Part shown: one piece after another, positions 885 through 57,307 of the stretch
How the letters are laid out: each line of letters begins with the position of its first letter
Numbering within the stretch: position 1 is the stretch's first letter
Translations under genes and position numbers: made by a program
Source of the DNA: a virus
Direction: 5' to 3' (one strand)
Length of the DNA stretch: 64,000 nucleotides
Virus record (IMG/VR): IMGVR_UViG_3300050821_002122
Coordinates: 32,001-96,000 of that record
Notes under the pieces: model-generated
Databases searched by the model: none
Seen by the model: only the letters and a program-made list of their open reading frames with translations
What the model was told of the DNA's origin: nothing

Positions 885-1670
885 ATGAACATCAATTTGC
901 ATGGCCTCAATGCCAACACCGTAGCGATAACGGACTTCAAGATCGTGGCCTCCAAGCTGGCCAAGGTCGTCATCTCGTTCACTGGCAAGTTCGACAAAGC
1001 AGAAGTTACTGCTGCGCTGGGTCGTCAGCTGGGCAATCTGGCAACACCGGTCGAGAACTCGTTCCAGCGTGTCAAAGCTGGCTGCGCTGTCGGCTTCATT
1101 CGCGCTAACCAAGAGGTGCGCGTACCTGAACCGCAGGAGCTGAAAGCGTACAAGATCATGTCGTCCAACATCATGATGGACGAATCGGACAAGTCCTTGT
1201 GGGAAGTTCGCAAAGGTGCTTCGGGTACGTATCTGGCACGTCAGGGTCATGAGGACCTGTCAGAACTGGTGTCGGCTGCTACCAACCATGGCATCCTGAA
1301 TGTACCGCGCCTGAATCACATCGCGCAGGCTTCAGTCGCTCGTCGTGAGTTCGTTGCCTTCGCTTCGGCCTCCGGTGACATGGATTACGGCTTCTGCGTA
1401 GGCGTCAATCGCAACGATGGCATGCTGAAGGTTGTGGCTACCTCGGATCGTCAGGCTGTGGTCATCTCGTCGGAGCAGGTTGTGGCTTCGGTTCCTGTCG
1501 GCAAGAACGCACTTCAGCTGCCGCACGATGCACACGCACGCATTACGGCAAGTGGCATCAGCCGTACCGACGCGGATCAAGAGATCACGTACTACCAGAA
1601 ACTGTACGGCTACGATCCAGCGTACTTGGCTGAAGTTATCCGCCAAGTTGAAGGCACTACCGCAATGTAA
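885..1670 (+). CDS. Hypothetical protein, possibly virion-associated
   Basis: 261-aa ORF, GGAG RBS, followed by a terminator. Confidence 0.7.
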   Translation: MNINLHGLNANTVAITDFKIVASKLAKVVISFTGKFDKAEVTAALGRQLGNLATPVENSFQRVKAGCAVGFIRANQEVRVPEPQELKAYKIMSSNIMMDESDKSLWEVRKGASGTYLARQGHEDLSELVSAATNHGILNVPRLNHIAQASVARREFVAFASASGDMDYGFCVGVNRNDGMLKVVATSDRQAVVISSEQVVASVPVGKNALQLPHDAHARITASGISRTDADQEITYYQKLYGYDPAYLAEVIRQVEGTTAM

Positions 1671-1681
1671 TTAGCCGTACA

Positions 1682-1716
1682 AAAGGGAGCGTCAGAGTTG
1701 ATCTGACGCTCCCTTT
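1682..1716. terminator. Bidirectional intrinsic terminator
   Basis: Perfect 15-bp inverted repeat AAAGGGAGCGTCAGA-gttga-TCTGACGCTCCCTTT between convergent genes. Confidence 0.85.
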
Positions 1717-1748
1717 ACCACGCATGTACTATGTGCTTTAAGCACTAA

Positions 1749-1804
1749 AATAGCACCATAGCACCCCTTGCCTGGTAGTGCCTGAGGTGCTCTATGGTGC
1801 TGTT
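1749..1804 (-). terminator. Long imperfect hairpin right after the stop of 1803..2411
   Basis: AATAGCACCATAG-CACC (1749-1765) vs GGTG-CT-CTATGGTGCTGTT (1786-1804); T-tract follows on - strand. Confidence 0.5.
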
Positions 1805-2411
1805 ACTGAGCTGCTGGCAGATCAACAACTGGAGCGGTTGGGTCAACTGCCAGAGCCGTTGGATCATCCACCACTGGTGCTTCTGCGGGTGCTTCGGTTG
1901 GAGCCGATTGCATTGCCAGCGCATCTTGCACAGCCTCACCAGCTGGTTGTGCATCCACAGCGGGCGATGCGTCAGCAACTGGAGCAGTTGGGTCCACAAC
2001 CGTTTGTTGAACGTCGGCTGCTGTACCATCGTTGGTCACCGCACTGTCAGCCACTTGCTGCACATCAGCGTTGCCGTCAGCCGCCGTATCGGTGGTGTCC
2101 GAACTGGCAGTATCTTGGGCGGCAGCGGCCACGATTTCGTCAGGGATGATGCCACCTTGTTGAGGACGGGTCGCCAGTGCCTCGATTGCTTGGTAACCAC
2201 CCTGCAGGCCTTGGATTGCGTTCTGCATGTTCTGGATAGCCGACGACGCGAATGGTGCCGTGTCACGCACGCCCTGGTTGTAGAAGAAACGGGCGTTGTC
2301 GATGGCGACTTGGCTCCAGGTTTCACGCCACGCTGGCGATGCCACATTCAGTGCGTTCTCGAAGCCGATTTGTACGGTGACGGTTTCGTCTTGGGTTGCT
2401 TGCTCGGTCAT
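1803..2411 (-). CDS. Acidic, lysine-free, low-complexity protein
   Basis: 202 aa; AAGGAA RBS; A/D/V/P/T-rich C-terminal half with VDPTA-type repeats. Confidence 0.75.
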   Translation of the reverse strand: MTEQATQDETVTVQIGFENALNVASPAWRETWSQVAIDNARFFYNQGVRDTAPFASSAIQNMQNAIQGLQGGYQAIEALATRPQQGGIIPDEIVAAAAQDTASSDTTDTAADGNADVQQVADSAVTNDGTAADVQQTVVDPTAPVADASPAVDAQPAGEAVQDALAMQSAPTEAPAEAPVVDDPTALAVDPTAPVVDLPAAQ

Positions 2412-2429
2412 AATAGTTCCTTAGTTAGG

Positions 2430-3764
2430 TTAAACATCTGAAGCTGCTAAATTGGGGAGCTCCTTCCCTTTCTTCTTAACACTTGCCAACGACTCCGACT
2501 CTTGCATGTCCACTCCATATACGCGCATCTTAGCACCATCTATACGCATTAGGAATGGGAAGCTTAGACTGTTGCGTGATTTAGGTTGATCGACCTTCAC
2601 CACCCAACCGTCATTCTTTATCTCCGGTGTCGATATCCAAATCCAACTATTGGAACTGTGTTCCGATATCGCCCGTGAGTATTTCAGTTTACCTTCTTCG
2701 TTCACCTGACAGATGAGGATGTTCACTCGGTTGCTGTTCTCAGCATTAATCTTGGCATAGCGCGCAACACGACCAAGAGCCTTTACTTGGTCATCGCCAT
2801 CAACACCTTTCAACAAGCTGATGTAATCGATGATGACCACATCAACGTCGAATGCGTTGATCGAAGCCATGATCTCCTCAATCGTCATGTCCTCTTCGGG
2901 TTTGAAGATCGTGTATCTACCACCACGCTTCTTGGCACGCTTTACCCATTTCTTGTACTTCAGGCGAACATGATCCTTCTCGTTCCCTTTGAGCTTTTGT
3001 AGCCACAAATCTGAGAAGTCTGTATTGGTTATGTTGGCAACGATACGCGCCGTCATCTCCTTCTTCGACATCTCCAATGGTACCAGCAGGACTTTGTAGC
3101 CTCTGCTTGCCATATTTACTGCTAGAGCCGACGCACAAATCGACTTGCCGCCGCCCGAGTTCGCACCGATGGTAACCAGACTACCTCGTGCAAATCCTCC
3201 AGCTTCATTATCGAAGGCGTCAATGCCGGTTTCGATAATGTCTTCCGACCGATCTTCGTCCAATAACTCATTCACGATTTTCATCGAGTTGTTATTGGCA
3301 CCGAAGTGAATAAACGAATCGTCCGTTGCCTTCTTGGCACGTACAACGTTAAGTGCTGTTGCAGCGCGGTGCAGCACTGCATCGATATCGATCTTTGACT
3401 TCTTAAGGTTAGTTGCCAGGTCAGCAGCAAGGTTGTAGAGGCCCCTGCGCTGGCGATACTTGTTCAGTATCGATGCAGCCTTTACTGCATCTGCTCTACT
3501 GTGAATTGAGGCGGTTGATTCTTTGATGTGGTCACGCGCCTCATCACTGATATCTGGGTCTTCGATCAACAACCGGTACGTCGGATTCTTACCCAACACA
3601 CCCATGTTCTTCATGATCGCTTCGTATATTTCTAGCGACTCCGGCGAATAGAAAAACGTGTCGTCAACCGCCCCAATCAACGTACCACTTATCTTAGGGT
3701 CTTTGCTTAGCATGCCGCGTAAGACTGCAAGCTCTGCCTTCGGAGATACGATCTTGACTCCCAT
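2430..3764 (-). CDS. dnaB: Replicative DNA helicase, DnaB family
   Basis: Walker A GANSGGGKS, PLEMS motif, Walker B IIDYISLL, N-terminal AELAVL..ML helical domain. Confidence 0.9.
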   Translation of the reverse strand: MGVKIVSPKAELAVLRGMLSKDPKISGTLIGAVDDTFFYSPESLEIYEAIMKNMGVLGKNPTYRLLIEDPDISDEARDHIKESTASIHSRADAVKAASILNKYRQRRGLYNLAADLATNLKKSKIDIDAVLHRAATALNVVRAKKATDDSFIHFGANNNSMKIVNELLDEDRSEDIIETGIDAFDNEAGGFARGSLVTIGANSGGGKSICASALAVNMASRGYKVLLVPLEMSKKEMTARIVANITNTDFSDLWLQKLKGNEKDHVRLKYKKWVKRAKKRGGRYTIFKPEEDMTIEEIMASINAFDVDVVIIDYISLLKGVDGDDQVKALGRVARYAKINAENSNRVNILICQVNEEGKLKYSRAISEHSSNSWIWISTPEIKNDGWVVKVDQPKSRNSLSFPFLMRIDGAKMRVYGVDMQESESLASVKKKGKELPNLAASDV

Positions 3765-3774
3765 CTTACCTCCT

Positions 3775-4419
3775 CTAAATAATGTCTATCTTTTTCTTCA
3801 CAATCGAATCAATGAAGTAGGCCAAGCCATGTACCGGGCAGAATAAACGTGTCGCCAGAAATGACATCGGGTCCAGACCAGCGCATACCACAATGCGCGG
3901 TACGTTTGGATAAGCCTCAATTATGTCGCGTGCTTTTTCTATACGGAATGCTGTGGAGTTCACCGTCAGGTTCGTGATGACTATAAGCGTTGGCGGTGCC
4001 CTCTCTTTGTCCAGATAGTGGTTGTCGAAGCCACCATACAGCGTAGCCCAAACTGGATTCGCATCACCCTTAAGGTGTTGCATGTGTAGCGCGACCAAAT
4101 AGGCCGCAAAATACTTCGCTTTCGCGTCGTCTGGGTTTCCACCAACTCCGTAGATCATAGACCGACATGGGTTCTCGATGAACTTAGCCAGAGATTTGTC
4201 TTGGACCGTCGACTCTATGAACTTGGAGTTCAGTTGCTCACTCTCTGTTGCGAACGTCTGGGGCGACCACTTGAATGCTTTCGTACGCCACACATGACCA
4301 GGTACGATACGCTCTACGCCGTGTTTGCGATCTATCTCAATCAGCTTAGGCAAACCAGCATCCTCTGATGGTCGTTCACGTACACGCCTTTCCTTCTTAC
4401 CTCTTGCAATGACTTCCAT
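3775..4419 (-). CDS. Hypothetical protein; possible degenerate DnaC/IstB-like helicase loader
   Basis: 214 aa, directly upstream of dnaB, alpha/beta pattern without an intact P-loop. Confidence 0.35.
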   Translation of the reverse strand: MEVIARGKKERRVRERPSEDAGLPKLIEIDRKHGVERIVPGHVWRTKAFKWSPQTFATESEQLNSKFIESTVQDKSLAKFIENPCRSMIYGVGGNPDDAKAKYFAAYLVALHMQHLKGDANPVWATLYGGFDNHYLDKERAPPTLIVITNLTVNSTAFRIEKARDIIEAYPNVPRIVVCAGLDPMSFLATRLFCPVHGLAYFIDSIVKKKIDII

Positions 4420-51440: not shown

Positions 51441-52879
51441 TAGGTTGCTCCGATGATTGTTTTGCCGCCACCACGCACGAGTGTGCGCTCTGGGTTGCTA
51501 TCTGGTACTAAGCTTGCTTGCTGCTGTTGCGGTGTTTTAGTTACTTGCGTTGGAGCTGCGGATGCAATGGCAGTACCATCTTTATACTTCAGGTCAGTCG
51601 GTGATATGACCGTGGACGCATTGGCCTCTTCGTACATGACGTTGAACCTGCCTTTTTGATAGACCAAGAACTGTGCAGCACTTTGACCTGCAAGCATACC
51701 ATTCTGCCGCATTGCCTTCAGTGTAGTAGCAGATGCAGGTTTACCAAGCATCACATCGATAATACCCGGGCCGATGTTGTGCATCATGTACAGGTTCTCA
51801 CCAGTCAACGGCAATCCATTTTTCTTCAGCAGCAGTGCGTTGTTACGTGCGAGTAGGCCAGTGGCCAACGTATTAATTCGTTTGTCACGACGTGGGTCCT
51901 CCGGTGTCCTGAATCTCTTACCAATGACCGTCATCCCGATTTTCTTACCAGCGTCAGTATTTGCTAAACCATCCCAAGTGGATTGAATGAATTGACCAGC
52001 ACCGATAGCACCCGTCGGAGACATGTCACCAGACCAACCAGCCTCCATTTTGATGAAGCCACGAAGAATGTCCTCTGGTATGTTGTACATCTTGGACGCT
52101 TCCTTAATGTAGGCGTCCTCATCGGCACCGAAGCCGGCGAATTTCTTTTTCAATTTGGAGTACAGCTTTTTGGTCGATTCGATTGGTGCAGTTACATACT
52201 CACTGAGCGACGGTGCCTCCTCCTCAGCCACCATCTTCTTGACCGATGCTGGACGGCTAACTGCGTATTCAGCAGATACTGGAGTAGCTACAGGTATAGG
52301 CATTCCTTCACCAACCTGTAGGGGTTCCGCAGCGCCTCGTAGATCAACGTCCTTCTTTGGTGGCTCTACTGCTTGCTCCCTGAAGAATTTATTCCATACC
52401 CAGTATGCACCTCCACCAATAGCTAACGCTGCAAAGATAGCGGCAGTCACCGGGTTGGCTACGGCCAATGCCACCACAAACTCTATCGCAGGTACTATGA
52501 CGTATTCCATTACAGCCGTAAGTACAGTGCGGACAAGATTCATCGCCATGCGAACGGCAAATCTGATGATAGGTTTAACCACCATCTTGAAGATTTTCTT
52601 TGCACCCCACTTCAGAGCCTTACCGATAATCTTACCTAACAACTTCATGATAGGACTACCGGTCTCTTGTTCCTCAGACGTATCACGTTCATCGACCTTT
52701 TGAATCAATGCTTTCAGCAATATTTCGGCTTCAGCCTGCGCGGCTTTTTGCTTGCGCTTTTTCTGTACCAAAGCAGCCAGTTTACCGCTGATGGTACTTA
52801 TGCGAGCCCCTTCCCGTATCGCATCTAACAATGCAAGTTTGGGAAGAGGCTCTTGAAACCTACTCATTGCATAAGTCAT
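51440..52879 (-). CDS. Tape-measure-associated protein with lytic transglycosylase domain
   Basis: Hydrophobic helical N-terminus; ILRGFIKMEAG, AIGAGQFIQSTW, YMMHNIGPG. Confidence 0.75.
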   Translation of the reverse strand: MTYAMSRFQEPLPKLALLDAIREGARISTISGKLAALVQKKRKQKAAQAEAEILLKALIQKVDERDTSEEQETGSPIMKLLGKIIGKALKWGAKKIFKMVVKPIIRFAVRMAMNLVRTVLTAVMEYVIVPAIEFVVALAVANPVTAAIFAALAIGGGAYWVWNKFFREQAVEPPKKDVDLRGAAEPLQVGEGMPIPVATPVSAEYAVSRPASVKKMVAEEEAPSLSEYVTAPIESTKKLYSKLKKKFAGFGADEDAYIKEASKMYNIPEDILRGFIKMEAGWSGDMSPTGAIGAGQFIQSTWDGLANTDAGKKIGMTVIGKRFRTPEDPRRDKRINTLATGLLARNNALLLKKNGLPLTGENLYMMHNIGPGIIDVMLGKPASATTLKAMRQNGMLAGQSAAQFLVYQKGRFNVMYEEANASTVISPTDLKYKDGTAIASAAPTQVTKTPQQQQASLVPDSNPERTLVRGGGKTIIGAT

Positions 52880-54687
52880 GATATGAGGCCCATGTTGAGA
52901 ATGTTCAGCGAGTCATCAGCGCTTTGGAACCCGAAGGAACCTAAGCTTGCCACACCAGGTGATGTACCGGAACCATTCTGTTTATCAGCACCACCCGGTG
53001 CCTGAGCAGGTGCAGGTGGAGCTACCGACACACCTTCTTTGTAGGTCAGTGGTTTGTCTGTCACTATTTGTGTCGTATCCTTCGGAGCTGCGGCGGATGA
53101 ACTGCTCAACACCGCCTCAGGGCTTGGACCTTGCAGAGTAGTCGAGGTGGTACCAGCAGTTGGCGTAGCCGTAGTACCTCCAGGGGCTGATGCTGCACCT
53201 GGTGCCGTAACCAACTTCTTAACGTCCGTTGGATTGGAACCAACACTCTTGTCACCACCAATAGGCGGTGCCATAGGTATGGTTGTCGGTGGTGGTGCCG
53301 ATGCACCAGTGCTTTTACCATTAGACGAGATCACCGTTTGATAGTTAGCCAACTGACCTTGCAGAATTTGCAGACGCTGATTCAAATGACTCACCCGAAT
53401 CTTGTTGCGATCTGACGGGTCTTTCTGCAAATCCTTTTGGGCTTCAAGAATAAGGTTCTTAGTGCCTTTTATCTTGTCCTGTATGTCAGGTATAGCCTTC
53501 TTTGCATCGGCTACCGTAGTGTTAGTCGGTATTGCAGATTCTTTTGCTACCGATGCTGCTATGGTGGCCTGTCCTTCTTTGGTAGCAGTTTTCGCTGCCG
53601 TCTTTTTCACATCCTCATTGTTCATCGAGAACGCATCTTTGATTTTCTTGACCACCCAATCTAAGACTTGGCTACCGCCATCTTTGATTTCTTTCCATGT
53701 GTTCGCCATGAAGGTTTCTATGGTATCGAAATTGAGGTACTTCGATACCGCAGCAGTGACTGTAGCGATCAGCTGGGGATTGGTCAAAGCGAGCAGCAAT
53801 ATCTTGCCTATGGGTCCAAATATCTTACCTAATAGCGATGACACCTTAGATGCCTTGCTCTTTGCTTTGTCGAATTTATCGCCAAAGAAGTTGCGCAGCT
53901 TACGTAACCAGGTTTCAGACTTTTTGTCCTCATCCTCTGGGTCTTCCTTTTTGGTGATCTTCGCCCAGCCATCGACAACCGCATCTCGCATTTGACCCAA
54001 TGTAGTCTTGACGTAAGCAGCGGTAATAGTTGCAGCGTGTGGCGTCTTCTTGATTGCAGCCAACGCATTGCGAGAGAGACCACGCAGTGTGTTGGGAGCA
54101 TCTTTTGCCTTCTGCATCGCTACATGCTTCAGGTCACGAAACCGCTCGCTCAAACTACGGTTAGTCTTTTCAGGAATAGCCGCTAGTTCGTGTTTCAGAT
54201 CGTCAAGCTTTCGCTGAGTTTCTGCATCATCTGGCGTAGCAGGTTCTACCTTCTCAGCCGCTTGGGGTTCAGCCGGCGGTCGCTTCTGAAGTACGCGACT
54301 TATGGCAGTCGCGCGCTCATCGCTCTTTACCGACTCTTCGTCGAATCGATCTTGTACAGCGCCCAGTATATCCTCGCTCGCTGCCTGAAGTACCTTCTGG
54401 AAAGTCTGCTTGAACAGACGATCCTGTGCCTTAGGCGTGAGTGGACGCTTACCAATAGCAATACGGTCGGCATTCATCTTGTCGATGATCGCATCGGCAG
54501 TAGCCTCTGCGCTGTGTATGCCTTCCTTGAATGCCTCACCGGCAAGTTCATGCTGCGACTCAACGAGCTTGGTCAACGATTCGATATCGCTAGGCGTAGC
54601 CGTACCGCTAAGCATCTTATCAATGGTAACCGATCCTTTGTCTTGGAGCGATTCCCATTTGTTCTTTTCATTCGCTGTTTTGAACAT
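52876..54687 (-). CDS. Tape measure-like protein
   Basis: 603 aa, helical, central hydrophobic segment, directly downstream of chaperone/frameshift pair. Confidence 0.6.
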   Translation of the reverse strand: MFKTANEKNKWESLQDKGSVTIDKMLSGTATPSDIESLTKLVESQHELAGEAFKEGIHSAEATADAIIDKMNADRIAIGKRPLTPKAQDRLFKQTFQKVLQAASEDILGAVQDRFDEESVKSDERATAISRVLQKRPPAEPQAAEKVEPATPDDAETQRKLDDLKHELAAIPEKTNRSLSERFRDLKHVAMQKAKDAPNTLRGLSRNALAAIKKTPHAATITAAYVKTTLGQMRDAVVDGWAKITKKEDPEDEDKKSETWLRKLRNFFGDKFDKAKSKASKVSSLLGKIFGPIGKILLLALTNPQLIATVTAAVSKYLNFDTIETFMANTWKEIKDGGSQVLDWVVKKIKDAFSMNNEDVKKTAAKTATKEGQATIAASVAKESAIPTNTTVADAKKAIPDIQDKIKGTKNLILEAQKDLQKDPSDRNKIRVSHLNQRLQILQGQLANYQTVISSNGKSTGASAPPPTTIPMAPPIGGDKSVGSNPTDVKKLVTAPGAASAPGGTTATPTAGTTSTTLQGPSPEAVLSSSSAAAPKDTTQIVTDKPLTYKEGVSVAPPAPAQAPGGADKQNGSGTSPGVASLGSFGFQSADDSLNILNMGLIS

Positions 54688-54690
54688 GGT

Positions 54691-54855
54691 TTAGCCTATG
54701 TAGGTTTTCCCATCGGATGCTGCTTTGAACCTGTCGCTTCGGCGTTTCTCGGCTACCGCAGCCAAATGCATTAGAGTCTTGACCGGCAGGTTCTCGTCAG
54801 GTATGCAGTGGAACTCGGACGCAATGAGTGAATATAGGTCCATAATCTGACTCAT
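54691..54855 (-). CDS. 54-aa ORF in the -1 frame of the chaperone (gpT-like); not in ORF track
   Basis: MSQIMDLYSLIASEFHCIPDENLPVKTLMHLAAVAEKRRSDRFKAASDGKTYIG; no SD; ATG lies inside a stem. Confidence 0.7.
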   Translation of the reverse strand: MSQIMDLYSLIASEFHCIPDENLPVKTLMHLAAVAEKRRSDRFKAASDGKTYIG

Positions 54856-54873
54856 TGCGGTTAGTGGAAAAAA
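54820..54873 (-). promoter_or_regulatory. Programmed -1 ribosomal frameshift signal
   Basis: In-frame T TTT TTC (54873-54867), spacer CACTAAC, stem CGCAATGAGT/ACTCATTGCG (54859-54850 and 54829-54820). Confidence 0.75.
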
Positions 54874-56072
54874 GAGTTGACGTCAATCACCACAGTATCT
54901 TTGCGCACGGTACCACAACCTTTGCAGGTAACACGCAATGTCTCTTTGACGCCATACTCCGTGATGGCTTTCTCGTAGGCCAAAATGGTCTCGATGTCTT
55001 CCGCACTCATCTCCATCACGATATTGCAGCGTTCCACCAGCGACATCCGGTCATTGCCGATTGGGCGAATATAGCACGCCTTCTCTGCCAAGAAACGGAA
55101 GTCAGCATCGATGAAGTTCGGGTGGTCCGTCATCTCGATGGCATCTTTCATCGTCGCCACCTTTAATTCAACACCTTGACATTCCAGTGTGAACTGCGAC
55201 AGGTCTGGTACAGTGGTTAGGAAGGTCTCTTCCAGAACACCCTTCTTGATGATCTCAGTGTGCTTCAACGATTCTACCAGTTTCGTTCCAGCCACCACAT
55301 CCTTCAAATGCTGTTCGTTGGTGCAGCTCGACGTATGCAGATAGGATGTTTTGGTGTAGCTGTTGATGCGCAGCCAGTACAGGATGTAGTAGAAGTCTGG
55401 GACCGTCAACTGGAATGCCAGATTGGCATGACCTTCAGGCGTACTCAGTACCGAGCTAACGGTCTCAGCAGTGTATAGCAAGCTACCTTCTTCATGCGCA
55501 CGGCTCAACTTCGACAGGTGGTAGCCACGGAATGGCCGTACATACAAGGCCTTGAAGTCGTAGAATGCATAGTTACTAGGCAGGCTGATGGGTACTGCCT
55601 CGACTTCGGTTACCGGAGTAGTGAACGACGGCACCACAACAGGAATCTGGCCCTCCGGTATCTGTACGGCAGCCGCCATAGGCTGGGCTGCGATACGATT
55701 TGAAGTACCACCACCGTAGTAAGCTGCGCCACCCGTGCCACTACCTGAAGCACCAGACATACCTCCGGTGCCGAAGTTACCGGATGCGCCACTACCTGAA
55801 GTACCAGACGTACCTCCACCATGTCCTGCTGCTACTCCACCACGCCCACCAGATATAGAACCTGCGCTATCGGTTGCACCAATTACTCCAGCCGGCATAG
55901 AGTAATTGGTCTGCATGTCACGACCGCTCATACGAGCTTGTGCGCGTGCTTGGGCATCAGGATGATGTGGGCTCTCGTAACGTTCTGCTTTTTCTTTTCT
56001 GCGTGCTTCACCAGCTGCGACACGTTCTGCTGGGAATGCCATGTAGTCAGTGCGTGATTCTTCGTTTGCCAT
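54861..56072 (-). CDS. Tail assembly chaperone (T4 gp26-like core) with Gly/Ser-rich N-terminal extension
   Basis: ISLPS...VRPF, PDFYYILYWLRINS, C-terminal TCKGC; ends in slippery site upstream of tape measure. Confidence 0.65.
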   Translation of the reverse strand: MANEESRTDYMAFPAERVAAGEARRKEKAERYESPHHPDAQARAQARMSGRDMQTNYSMPAGVIGATDSAGSISGGRGGVAAGHGGGTSGTSGSGASGNFGTGGMSGASGSGTGGAAYYGGGTSNRIAAQPMAAAVQIPEGQIPVVVPSFTTPVTEVEAVPISLPSNYAFYDFKALYVRPFRGYHLSKLSRAHEEGSLLYTAETVSSVLSTPEGHANLAFQLTVPDFYYILYWLRINSYTKTSYLHTSSCTNEQHLKDVVAGTKLVESLKHTEIIKKGVLEETFLTTVPDLSQFTLECQGVELKVATMKDAIEMTDHPNFIDADFRFLAEKACYIRPIGNDRMSLVERCNIVMEMSAEDIETILAYEKAITEYGVKETLRVTCKGCGTVRKDTVVIDVNSFFH

Positions 56073-56099: not shown

Positions 56100-56109
56100 T
56101 ATTTACTGT
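56100..56109 (-). promoter_or_regulatory. ACAGTAAATA motif (class A)
   Basis: 27 nt upstream of chaperone ATG; extended context AGTAAATAAYATGTTTAAC shared with positions 5-23. Confidence 0.6.
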
Positions 56110-57137
56110 TAGGCGGTTGCCGAGAAGTCTGGTACGTCCGATAGACCTGGTACTTCTGGTGGCGTACCAGCATCGACTTGCAGGTTATCCGTGTTGAATG
56201 GATCGATGGATGCTGCCAAAGTTTTGCTTATAGCGAACGCATTTATGTAGACATCATCAACAGAGAAGGTTACCACGTTGACGATGCGTGTCGAAGTATT
56301 GCTGTCTAGCGAATACGATGCTACGTTTGTGGGCCAACACCCCTGATACGTTATCTGGAACAACGTGCGCTTGTCCGGACCTAGTATGTAGATGTTGATA
56401 TCCTTCTTGTAGTCCTTACTACGACCGTAGCCGCCTCCTTTAGCTGATGCCTGCGCTGAAGGTATCGGGTTTACTATAGCACCGTTCCATGCTTGCAGGT
56501 AACCAATTGCGGCATTGGTCGTATCACCATAGAGATGCAGTGTTAGGTTGTCCACCGAGTACGGACCAGGGTAATGCTCTTGGTGACCTTGCACGAATCG
56601 ACTGCGCGTTTCAAAGTTCCTGAATGGAACAGTGGCTTCTTCGACGTAGTACCATGGCAGACTTACTGGTGAACCACCTATAGGTGTGACGTCAGGCATT
56701 ATTGCGTACCATAGGTAGCTCATCATCGGATCAGTACGGGCCATAGCACCTGCCAAACTGTTACCAGGTTGAGCAGCGCCACCAGCACCTGGACCACTCA
56801 TGGTGGAACCGCTACTGATACCAAAGGTTTTACCTAGTTGACCCAAGATATCACTTGGTCCTTTGGACAATTGGGAGAGACCTCCGCTGAAGTCACCGTG
56901 AGCCGCAGCATTGGCTGCACCCGACAGGTCTTTGAGACCTAGGTTGATGGCTTGACTTACACCGCCAGTGACGCCGCCAACTTGATTCTTGATGTAGTTG
57001 GGTACAACGTTGGCTACGGAACTGCCGGCAGACGACATACCGCCGGAGAACGTTTGTTTGACACTGTTACCGCTTGAAGCTGTGGATTGTTTTACCTGCG
57101 ACATTGCAGATGATATGATGTCGGATAAGGATGGCAT
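56109..57137 (-). CDS. Tail tube-fold protein (gp19/gp54-like) with G/S-rich N-terminus
   Basis: VEEATVPF, DNLTLHLY, LQAW, YKKDINIY, YQGCWPTNV, VTFSVDD. Confidence 0.7.
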   Translation of the reverse strand: MPSLSDIISSAMSQVKQSTASSGNSVKQTFSGGMSSAGSSVANVVPNYIKNQVGGVTGGVSQAINLGLKDLSGAANAAAHGDFSGGLSQLSKGPSDILGQLGKTFGISSGSTMSGPGAGGAAQPGNSLAGAMARTDPMMSYLWYAIMPDVTPIGGSPVSLPWYYVEEATVPFRNFETRSRFVQGHQEHYPGPYSVDNLTLHLYGDTTNAAIGYLQAWNGAIVNPIPSAQASAKGGGYGRSKDYKKDINIYILGPDKRTLFQITYQGCWPTNVASYSLDSNTSTRIVNVVTFSVDDVYINAFAISKTLAASIDPFNTDNLQVDAGTPPEVPGLSDVPDFSATA

Positions 57138-57159: not shown

Positions 57160-57307
57160 CGTGGGAATAGCTGGCGTTTGATCCTCTATGGGCCAGCAAC
57201 ACCCACGGGCATGAAAAAAGAGGGAGGACAATTCCTGTCTTCCTCCCTCAACACAATAACCTTGCACCCTTCTCACGGTTTAGGCGGCATGGCCACCCAA
57301 GGTAATT
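57160..57307 (-). ncRNA. Candidate structured cis-regulatory RNA in a 258-nt intergenic region
   Basis: Three-way-junction-like element (57307-57255), terminator (57249-57214), long hairpin (57207-57160); matches no family I recognise. Confidence 0.35.
57214..57249 (-). terminator. Intrinsic terminator upstream of the tail operon
   Basis: GAGGGAGGA...TCCTCCCTC followed by T6 on the - strand. Confidence 0.75.

What the first reader, a model, noticed from the sequence alone, without database searches (positions are those of the whole stretch)
54691..54873. Complete -1 programmed frameshift cassette at the end of a gp26-like tail chaperone
Seen on - strand: ...AAC TCT TTT TTC CAC TAA. The heptamer T TTT TTC is in the correct phase, followed by a 7-nt spacer and a perfect 10-bp stem (CGCAATGAGT/ACTCATTGCG, 20-nt loop). 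The -1 frame continues F-F-P-L-T-A-M-S-Q-I-M... with no stop to 54691, giving a ~460-aa fusion beside the 403-aa product. The downstream ORF has no SD and its ATG is buried in the stem. The next gene is the tape-measure-like one. Known: lambda G/GT and P2 E/E' use this arrangement; T4 gp26/gp51 are not known to. Inference: a G/GT-type recoding event on a T4-like chaperone in a jumbo myovirus, which standard annotation would miss.
Basis: partly seen in the sequence, partly recalled or inferred. Interest (0 to 1): 0.8.

Follow-up and report, generated by a model that had tools for sequence, protein, structure and literature searches.

The report
Frameshift-extended gp26-like hub assembly protein
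A jumbo phage's baseplate-hub assembly gene ends in a ribosome slip site that joins it to a conserved 54-codon ORF just before the tape-measure-like gene; relatives get the same long form by a +1 slip, a second gene copy or an in-frame fusion, so making a short and a long form looks like a rule for this tail type.

Summary
These are an in-phase T_TTT_TTC (54873-54867, - strand), a stop two codons later, a 7-nt spacer, a perfect 10-bp stem with a 20-nt loop, and an open -1 frame to 54691. The small ORF's ATG has no SD and lies in the stem. In 38 non-redundant relatives the small ORF is never in the hub frame: 30 are +1 and 8 are -1. All -1 loci have T_TTT_TTC and all +1 loci have TTT-Y, a known +1-prone site. 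Polarity switched 2-3 times on the hub tree. The distance from slip site to small-ORF core is fixed while the 0-frame stop moves 6-33 nt. The shifted frame is always open back to the site. Twelve loci have no start codon there. PaBG, Lu11 and an uncultured ~238-kb phage encode the same hub+extension in frame, with identical spacing. PaBG and Lu11 also keep a short paralog. The hub has the T4 gp26 fold family, not a lambda-G fold. This is a new variant of a known kind: a G/GT-like two-form strategy on a gp26-like protein. No paper describing it was found. No mass-spectrometry or reporter evidence exists.

The parts
54861..56072 (-). gp26-like baseplate hub assembly gene, 0-frame product 403 aa. 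N-terminal ~140 aa is a variable Gly/Ser-rich region. C-terminal ~260 aa is the conserved domain with an invariant Cys/His cluster, ending in ..N-S-F-F-H*.
   Evidence: ORF list. phrog_13792 E 1e-31 and phrog_150 'baseplate hub' E 2.5e-4. AF2 pLDDT 90. BFVD matches to T4-like baseplate hub assembly proteins.
54867..54873 (-). Slippery heptamer T_TTT_TTC in 0-frame phase (codons TCT TTT TTC).
   Evidence: The same heptamer is present in 8/8 relatives whose small ORF is in the -1 frame, and absent from all 30 +1-frame relatives.
54861..54863 (-). 0-frame stop TAA of the short (403-aa) product, two codons after the slip site.
54820..54859 (-). Hairpin starting 7 nt after the heptamer: 10-bp stem (54859-54850 / 54829-54820) with a 20-nt loop. 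The 5' arm holds the small-ORF ATG. The 3' arm is the conserved S-L-I-A codons.
   Evidence: MFE and centroid structure. Analogous hairpins 4-7 nt after the heptamer in 7 of 8 -1-class loci. The -1 class is more structured than the +1 class (MWU p 0.003).
54694..54867 (-). -1-frame extension of the long form (58 codons: P-L-T-A, then the 54 codons of the small ORF).
   Evidence: The shifted-frame peptide F-F-P-L-x-S.. is conserved across the family.
54691..54855 (-). Small ORF (54 aa + stop), a conserved ~50-aa helical domain, in the -1 frame relative to the hub, with no SD.
   Evidence: Homologs found in 38/38 loci. 92 representative proteins in the 1.8-billion library.
52876..54687 (-). Next gene, 603 aa, tape-measure-like by position and length only.
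   Evidence: Only phrog_17020 (unknown function) at E 2.4e-4. No significant similarity to T4 gp29. Conserved synteny in relatives.
56109..57137 (-). Upstream gene, 342 aa, tail-tube-initiator-like (gp19-type tube domain).
   Evidence: phrog_45 E 3.5e-18. PF06841 weak hit. Annotated 'tail tube initiator' in BcepSauron.

Best explanation
The gp26-like hub assembly gene makes two proteins. Most ribosomes stop at TAA and give the 403-aa short form. A fraction slip back one base on U_UUU_UUC: tRNA-Phe in the P and A sites re-pairs with UUU UUU. The hairpin 7 nt downstream probably helps. These ribosomes read P-L-T-A and then the 54-codon ORF, giving a 460-aa long form with a ~50-aa helical C-terminal extension. 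The same hairpin buries the small ORF's SD-less ATG, which favours the fusion route. The family as a whole needs both a short and a long form of this protein, encoded just upstream of the tape-measure-like gene. Different lineages get them by -1 slip, by +1 slip at UUU_Y, by two paralogous genes, or as an in-frame fusion. Shown: the sequence anatomy and the comparative constraints. Inferred: that slippage occurs, its efficiency, the hairpin's role, and the function of the extension. That function is a guess: docking of the hub-assembly protein to the tape measure or tube initiator, by analogy with lambda GT.
For: (1) Anatomy is as described. (2) In 38 non-redundant loci the small ORF is found every time and is never in the hub frame: 30 are +1 and 8 are -1. 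(3) Site type tracks polarity without exception. All 8 -1 loci have T_TTT_TTC. Their Ser codon varies (TCT or AGT) but always ends in T, against 2/30 in the +1 class (my count, Fisher p about 1e-6, not corrected for phylogeny). All 30 +1 loci have TTT-Y, three of them as CTT_TGA/TAA like prfB. (4) The hub tree needs 2-3 independent polarity switches. (5) The site-to-core distance is fixed: 23 nt in 8/8 -1 loci and 25 nt in 29/30 +1 loci. The 0-frame stop moves 6-33 nt after the site and even lies past the core start in L028-L032. (6) The shifted frame is open from core to site in 38/38. In L039 and L056 a stop lies immediately 5' of the T-run, which pins the shift to the heptamer. The other two frames carry 35 and 49 stops over the same stretch. 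(7) 12/38 loci have no ATG/GTG/TTG between the site and the core. L023, L029 and L031 have none anywhere in the open frame. (8) TTT is a minority Phe codon in these loci (mean 35%, window 11%, L024 0 of 33), yet the site is always TTT. (9) In-frame equivalents exist. PaBG gp072 has a hub domain (E 5e-17) plus the small domain (E 7e-5), with the same 8-residue FF-to-core spacing. Lu11 gp057 is the long form and its paralog gp058 ends ..AHSFFV*. P0015 (313 aa) has hub E 1e-47 and small domain E 5e-14, and its cluster was seen on 27+45 contigs up to 240 kb. (10) UUU_Ynn is a documented +1-prone site in bacteria (PMC5009743). (11) Downstream structure is stronger in the -1 class than in the +1 class (mean z -2.16 against -0.33).
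Against: There is no protein-level evidence for any member, and none was found in the literature searched. The host of the window phage is unknown, and so is the efficiency of U_UUU_UUC in it. In the window's clade an ATG 5 nt after the stop (or ATGA overlap in L039-type loci) is conserved, so termination-reinitiation could also make a free 54-aa protein. Many +1 relatives have a good AAGGA SD plus ATG, so the small protein may often be made separately as well. The hairpin has no common register across the three -1 lineages: RNAalifold finds no consensus, L021 has no significant hairpin, and the window z-score is only -2 to -3.4. The class comparisons are not corrected for phylogeny. AF2 gives the extension low confidence, so nothing is learned about how it acts.
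Confidence: 0.85

Rival explanations
1. The small ORF is only a separate gene, translated by termination-reinitiation (TAA, 5 nt, ATG). The heptamer is a by-product of the conserved S-F-F residues, and the hairpin merely enforces coupling.
For: The ATG is 5 nt past the stop and is conserved in the window's clade. phiRSL1, BcepSauron and many others have an SD plus ATG. The hub C-terminal motif AHSF(F/L) is conserved as protein.
Against: This model does not explain the fixed site-to-core distance with a wandering stop, or the frame never being 0. It also fails to explain T_TTT_TTC in 8/8 -1 loci against TTT-Y in 30/30 +1 loci across 2-3 switches, the rare TTT codon always being used, 12/38 loci without any start, or the in-frame fusions with identical spacing.
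Confidence: 0.1
2. The long form arises by transcriptional slippage of RNA polymerase on the T6 run rather than by ribosomal slippage.
For: A run of six T precedes the frame change in the -1 class.
Against: Six residues is short for efficient slippage, from general knowledge of A/T runs of 7-9 or more. The +1 class (TTT CTT, TTT CTA, TTT CTG) has no homopolymer run yet shows the same constraints. The in-phase X_XXY_YYZ requirement, with T always at the first position, is a ribosomal signature.
Confidence: 0.03
3. The frame break is an assembly or sequencing error in a homopolymer, and the gene is really one continuous ORF.
For: An in-frame version exists in one uncultured relative (P0015).
Against: The same break is present in 38 independent non-redundant assemblies, including five finished GenBank genomes, with two different polarities. 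The hub-frame stop lies only two codons after the heptamer here.
Confidence: 0.02

Closest known systems
Lambda G/GT, P2 E/E+E' and the conserved tail-assembly-chaperone frameshift (Levin 1993; Xu, Hendrix and Duda 2004, as cited in PMC5009743)
   Same: There are two products sharing an N-terminal body. [quoted passage not shown] The pair lies directly upstream of the (presumed) tape-measure gene. Polarity is not fixed across phages.
   Different: The protein family differs. This is a ~260-aa alpha/beta gp26-type domain with a Cys/His cluster. It has no Pfam chaperone hit and no meaningful fold match to the HK97 chaperone 2ob9 (E 5.9). The extension is only ~50-58 aa. Many relatives also have an own start for the extension ORF. 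+1 is the majority polarity.
T4 gp26 (hub assembly chaperone; PMC3004832 Table 2)
   Same: The fold family is the same by BFVD matches to 'baseplate hub assembly protein, T4-like' and by the PHROG 150 hit. The layout is the same: C-x-C..H, then CxxCG, 12-13 residues, FF, then the C-terminus. It sits in the baseplate gene module.
   Different: T4 gene 26 is followed directly by gene 25, with no small ORF and no TTT-Y or T_TTT_TTC (it reads TTC TTT GAG). T4 makes a second product, gp26', by an internal in-frame start instead. Direct hhalign to T4 gp26 is colinear but not significant.
Paralog pairs PaBG gp073/gp072 and Lu11 gp058/gp057, and the in-frame fusion P0015
   Same: These have the same hub domain and the same C-terminal extension, joined at the FF motif with the same spacing. 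A short form and a long form are both encoded.
   Different: No recoding is involved. PaBG and Lu11 use two genes. P0015's phage has one in-frame gene, and its DNA context could not be fetched.
UUU_Y +1 sites (Yersinia YopN-TyeA, influenza PA-X UCC_UUU_CGU) and prfB CUU_UGA (PMC5009743)
   Same: The +1-class relatives carry UCN_UUU_CUU, UUU_CUA or UUU_CCC, and in four loci CUU_UGA or CUU_UAA. As in YopN-TyeA, the shift near the end of one gene fuses it to the next small gene.
   Different: The window itself uses the -1 heptamer, not this site. No upstream SD-like stimulator as in prfB was seen.

Membership tests
-1 programmed ribosomal frameshift cassette | X_XXY_YYZ heptamer in 0-frame phase near the end of the upstream ORF | tested here: met
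   T_TTT_TTC at 54873-54867, in the codons TCT TTT TTC.
-1 programmed ribosomal frameshift cassette | -1 frame open from the heptamer into a conserved coding region | tested here: met
   The frame is open from 3 codons before the heptamer to 54691. The downstream ORF is conserved in 38/38 relatives.
-1 programmed ribosomal frameshift cassette | Stimulatory RNA structure 5-9 nt downstream | tested here: inconclusive
   The window has a 10-bp stem after a 7-nt spacer. A hairpin is present in 7/8 -1 loci, and the class difference has p 0.003. However, there is no common register, RNAalifold finds nothing, and the hairpin could equally serve to mask the ATG.
-1 programmed ribosomal frameshift cassette | Heptamer conserved in relatives with the same frame arrangement | tested here: met
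   8/8 -1-class loci in 2-3 independent lineages have it, with the Ser codon switching between TCT and AGT but keeping T.
-1 programmed ribosomal frameshift cassette | Trans-frame protein product | not testable with these tools
   No proteomic data were found.
Lambda G/GT-type tail assembly chaperone pair | Overlapping ORF pair immediately upstream of the tape-measure gene | tested here: inconclusive
   The position is met. The tape-measure identity of the 603-aa gene rests only on length and synteny.
Lambda G/GT-type tail assembly chaperone pair | Homology or fold of the known chaperone families (gpG / Phage_TAC) | tested here: not met
   There is no Pfam hit. The fold is gp26-like. The only chaperone structure listed, 2ob9, scores E 5.9 and probability 0.05.
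Lambda G/GT-type tail assembly chaperone pair | Both forms bind the tape measure, the long form recruits tube protein, and neither is in the virion | not testable with these tools
   This needs biochemistry.
T4 gp26 baseplate hub assembly protein family | Profile or sequence match to the family | tested here: met
   phrog_150 'baseplate hub' matches at E 2.5e-4 over residues 153-402. This is weak. Direct hhalign to T4 gp26 is colinear but not significant.
T4 gp26 baseplate hub assembly protein family | Shared fold | tested here: met
   The AF2 model (pLDDT 90) matches BFVD models named baseplate hub subunit, hub assembly protein (T4-like) or chaperone, at E 1e-12 to 1e-5. There is no solved structure to compare with.
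T4 gp26 baseplate hub assembly protein family | Cys/His cluster and C-terminal CxxCG-x12-13-FF motif | tested here: met
   C250, H255, C383 and C386 are invariant. T4 gp26 has WKCTCG..H and CPECG-x12-FFELL*.
UUU_Y +1 frameshift sites (applies to the relatives, not the window) | UUU followed by a pyrimidine at the frame junction, with the +1 frame open | tested here: met
   30/30 +1-class loci meet this, as do PhiXhv-12 and RHEph12. The site type is described in PMC5009743.

The most novel reading that the evidence does not exclude
Gp26-type hub assembly proteins are the missing G/GT equivalent of T4-type and jumbo contractile tails. Assembly needs a set ratio of a short form and a long form. 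The ~50-aa extension of the long form docks to the tape measure or tube initiator. Evolution has met this need interchangeably by +1 slippage, -1 slippage (with at least two polarity flips), gene duplication or fusion.
Probability: 0.35. Interest if true: 0.9.

Novelty: new variant of a known kind. Interest (0 to 1): 0.78.

Why it matters
Programmed frameshifting in tail assembly genes is a textbook feature of lambda-, P2- and Mu-type tails. T4-type tails have been the exception, and the role of gp26 remains unsettled: PMC3004832 lists it as a hub assembly chaperone of uncertain presence in the virion. This finding puts a recoding site on the gp26 family in a large group of jumbo phages. These include phiRSL1, Motura, BcepSauron/Saruman, BCSR5, the PhiXhv/Ep026 Xanthomonas phages, Rhizobium RHEph12 and many uncultured ones. 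None of the GenBank records seen annotates it. Gene callers either cut the small ORF or start it at a spurious ATG inside the hub gene. The family also offers a natural series in which the slip-site sequence and the frame polarity change together. In that series recoding, duplication and fusion are alternative solutions to the same need. That makes both the requirement for two forms and the evolution of shift sites directly testable in cultivable phages.

Tried and rejected
My first reading after searches was that the small ORF is just a separate gene. It is in the +1 frame in all four GenBank relatives, and phiRSL1 and BcepSauron have an SD and ATG. I dropped this once 38 junctions were tabulated. 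Other steps that led nowhere:
- blastn of the region against phages found nothing.
- RNAalifold on the eight -1-class junctions gave no consensus structure.
- The PDB sequence search and Foldseek against the PDB gave no meaningful match.
- T4 gp51 is unrelated to either the hub or the small domain.
- T4 gp29 shows no significant similarity to the 603-aa gene.
- A combined MAFFT alignment of the fusion with hub and small rows misaligned the hubs and was not used.
- The AF2 model of the natural fusion P0015 left the extension at low confidence.
- Extra IMG/VR scans added no new close relatives of the window clade.
- Literature searches for a described frameshift in these genes found none.

Full report
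WHAT IS THERE. The window is bases 32001-96000 of a 189,689-bp IMG/VR virus record estimated 80% complete. On the minus strand around the finding lies a conserved tail and baseplate module:
- portal (624 aa) and two small ORFs;
- a tube-initiator-like protein (342 aa);
- a 403-aa ORF (56072-54861);
- a 54-aa ORF (54855-54691);
- a 603-aa ORF (54687-52876);
- a transglycosylase tail protein (479 aa);
- a PmgG-like protein, a gp25-like protein and a baseplate-wedge-sized protein.

The same order is found in phiRSL1, Motura, BcepSauron and BCSR5. The phage is therefore a phiRSL1-like jumbo myovirus.

The 403-aa ORF ends ..AAC TCT TTT TTC CAC TAA. T_TTT_TTC (54873-54867) is in X_XXY_YYZ phase. After a 7-nt spacer comes a perfect 10-bp stem (54859-54850 with 54829-54820) and a 20-nt loop. 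This stem is the MFE and centroid structure (-16.7 kcal/mol, z -1.96; z -2.8 to -3.4 in shorter contexts). The -1 frame reads F-F-P-L-T-A-M-S-Q-I-M.. to the stop at 54693-54691, which gives a 460-aa fusion. The ATG at 54855 lies in the 5' arm and has no SD (+2.1 kcal/mol against a background median of -2.4). The heptamer is not over-represented in the window (5 found, 6.1 expected). Its meaning depends on context.

FIRST IMPRESSION AND WHY IT CHANGED. In the four GenBank relatives the small ORF is in the +1 frame, not -1. phiRSL1 and BcepSauron have a good SD and ATG. That looked like a plain separate gene. But Motura and BCSR5 have no start codon in front of the conserved N-terminus of the small protein. 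I therefore collected relatives from IMG/VR and metagenomes and tabulated 38 non-redundant junctions.

FAMILY-WIDE PATTERN.
- The small-ORF homolog is found in 38/38 loci and is never in the hub frame: 30 are +1 and 8 are -1.
- All eight -1 loci have T_TTT_TTC. Their Ser codon is TCT or AGT but always ends in T, against 2 of 30 in the +1 class.
- All thirty +1 loci have TTT followed by a pyrimidine. Most are TCN TTT CTT. Others are TTT CTA, TTT CTG, TTT CCC, TTT TCC and TTT TTT C. Four read TTT CTT TGA or TAA, like prfB.
- The distance from the first Phe codon to the start of the small-domain core is 23 nt in 8/8 -1 loci and 25 nt in 29/30 +1 loci. The hub's own stop moves from 6 to 33 nt after the site, and in L028-L032 it lies beyond the core start.
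- The shifted frame is open from the core back to the site in 38/38. In L039 and L056 a stop sits immediately 5' of the T-run, so the shift can only happen on the heptamer.
- Read in the shifted frame, the junction gives one conserved peptide in both polarity classes: ..A-H-S-F-F-P-L-(N/T)-S-x-(K)-(D/E)-x-(M/L)-D-R-x-x-L-I-A.. The other two frames carry 35 and 49 stops over the same stretch.
- Twelve loci have no ATG, GTG or TTG between the site and the core: Motura, L022, L023, L025, L029, L030, L031, L044, L049, L051, L067, L069. L023, L029 and L031 have none anywhere in the open frame.
- TTT is the minority Phe codon in these genes (mean 35%, window 11%, L024 0 of 33), and CTT is 16% of Leu codons. 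Yet the site is always TTT.

INDEPENDENT SWITCHES. A maximum-likelihood tree of the hub C-domains places the -1 loci in three places: WIN/L006/L039/L042/L056, then L015/L059, then L021. The label needs three changes, and at least two are forced by well-supported branches. Each switch of polarity comes with the matching change of slip site. This co-variation is what a functional shift site predicts and what a chance U-run does not.

KNOWN MECHANISM FOR THE +1 CLASS. [quoted passage not shown] It names this as the likely site of the Yersinia YopN-TyeA fusion, and gives influenza PA-X as UCC_UUU_CGU. The family's UCN_UUU_CUU fits this, with a rare Leu codon in the A site.

DOWNSTREAM STRUCTURE. 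Seven of eight -1 loci fold into a hairpin that starts 4-7 nt after the heptamer. The 3' arm is always the L-I-A codons, and the 5' arm includes the small-ORF ATG. The 5' arm sits at different linker positions in the three lineages, so RNAalifold finds no consensus. As a class the -1 loci are more structured than the +1 loci (mean z -2.16 against -0.33, Mann-Whitney p 0.003, not corrected for phylogeny). This fits a -1 stimulator, but the hairpin could also, or instead, mask the ATG.

NATURAL IN-FRAME EQUIVALENTS. The small-domain HMM also hits the C-termini of longer proteins in more distant jumbo phages.
- PaBG gp072 (315 aa) has the hub domain at residues 17-259 (hhalign probability 98.8%, E 5e-17). 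It ends ..H-I-L-S-F-F-A and continues in frame into the small domain (E 7e-5). The 8-residue spacing from the second Phe to the core is the same as in the predicted trans-frame product.
- Directly upstream of gp072 lies gp073 (261 aa), annotated only as a hypothetical protein. By analogy with Lu11 I take it to be a short copy, but it was not compared here.
- In Lu11, gp058 (260 aa, ends ..A-H-S-F-F-V*) and gp057 (324 aa..K-F-F-A-D-N-T.. plus the small domain) are paralogs (BLASTP E 1e-16).
- A search of 1.8 billion representative proteins with the small-domain profile returned 92 hits, almost all 40-87 aa. Many are 64 aa because gene callers start them at an ATG 36 nt upstream. That ATG is created by the hub's D-A codons.
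- The one long hit, P0015 (313 aa), is a phiRSL1-type hub (E 1e-47) fused in frame to the small domain (E 5e-14), again with the same spacing. Its cluster was seen on 27+45 contigs up to 240 kb, so it is not an assembly slip.

The long form is therefore a real protein in nature, joined at exactly this motif. At least two lineages encode a short and a long form side by side.

WHAT THE PROTEIN IS. Pfam finds nothing. PHROGs gives phrog_13792 (E 1e-31) and 'baseplate hub' phrog_150 (E 2.5e-4). An AF2 model of the C-domain is confident (pLDDT 90). It has no match in the PDB. It matches many BFVD models named baseplate hub subunit, baseplate hub assembly protein (T4-like), or hub assembly chaperone. 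T4 gp26 itself shows the same layout, with a Cys pair and His, then CxxCG, 12 residues, FF and the C-terminus, though direct profile comparison is not significant. T4 gene 26 is followed by gene 25, has no shift site, and has an internal in-frame start for gp26'. Leiman et al. list gp26 as a hub assembly chaperone whose presence in the virion is disputed (PMC3004832). So 'gp26-like' is right, and membership of the lambda G or P2 E chaperone families is not. The 603-aa neighbour is tape-measure-like only by place and size. The extension is predicted as a short helix plus a long helix with low confidence, and its partner is unknown.

EXTENT. The arrangement also occurs in Xanthomonas phage PhiXhv-12 and its kin (TTT CTT CCC, +1, open frame). 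It occurs in Rhizobium phage RHEph12 as well (TTT CCC TAA, +1, open frame, no SD). NCTB resembles Lu11 and PaBG in having a short gene followed by a longer gene. None of the GenBank records seen annotates a joined CDS, and the papers searched do not mention it. The scan's own notes hold only a second copy of this same finding.

VERDICT. The protein is a gp26-type hub assembly protein. The -1 cassette is the minority variant of a family-wide recoding site that is mostly +1. Separate initiation of the small ORF is not excluded and is probably real in many relatives. What is not shown is the product itself, its abundance, the hairpin's role, and what the extension binds.

Noticed in passing
window 54861-55655 (-), hub residues C250, H255, C383, C386: Four Cys/His positions are invariant across all hub homologs (C-x4-H ... 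C-x2-C-G). T4 gp26 has equivalents. This is probably a structural zinc site in the gp26 family.
   Followed up: partly
window 55656-56072 (-): The N-terminal ~140 aa of the hub protein is a Gly/Ser/Ala-rich low-complexity stretch. Its length and sequence vary freely among relatives (348 to 476 aa total).
   Followed up: no
L003 (Motura) 3707-3901, and 64-aa proteins: Gene callers often start the small ORF at an ATG 36 nt upstream, inside the hub gene. That ATG is created by the hub's conserved Asp-Ala codons (GAT GCN) read in the +1 frame. It is a likely systematic mis-annotation.
   Followed up: partly
L079 (PaBG) 695-2424; L076 (Lu11) 2483-4246; L081 (NCTB) 1498-3212: These loci show tandem genes at the gp26-like position: a short gene, then a longer one. 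In Lu11 the two are paralogs, and in PaBG and Lu11 the longer gene carries the small domain in frame. PaBG gp073 was not compared, and the NCTB long form was not hit by the small-domain HMM.
   Followed up: partly
window 56109-57137 (-): The 342-aa protein upstream combines weak tape-measure-like PHROG hits at its N-terminus with a gp19-type tube domain at its C-terminus (tube-initiator-like).
   Followed up: no
L077 (T4) 349-404: In the T4 record, gene 28 starts 56 nt inside the 3' end of gene 27. This is another overlap in the hub gene cluster just upstream of the tape measure gene 29.
   Followed up: no
window 57213-57219 (-): One of the only five TTTTTTC copies in the window lies in the non-coding leader upstream of the tube-initiator gene. 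It is the U-run of the terminator-like hairpin noted by another first-stage entry.
   Followed up: no
window 54885-54890 (-): GGTGAT, part of an extended SD-like sequence, ends 12 nt upstream of the heptamer. This recalls the dnaX upstream stimulator, but it is not conserved in L006.
   Followed up: partly
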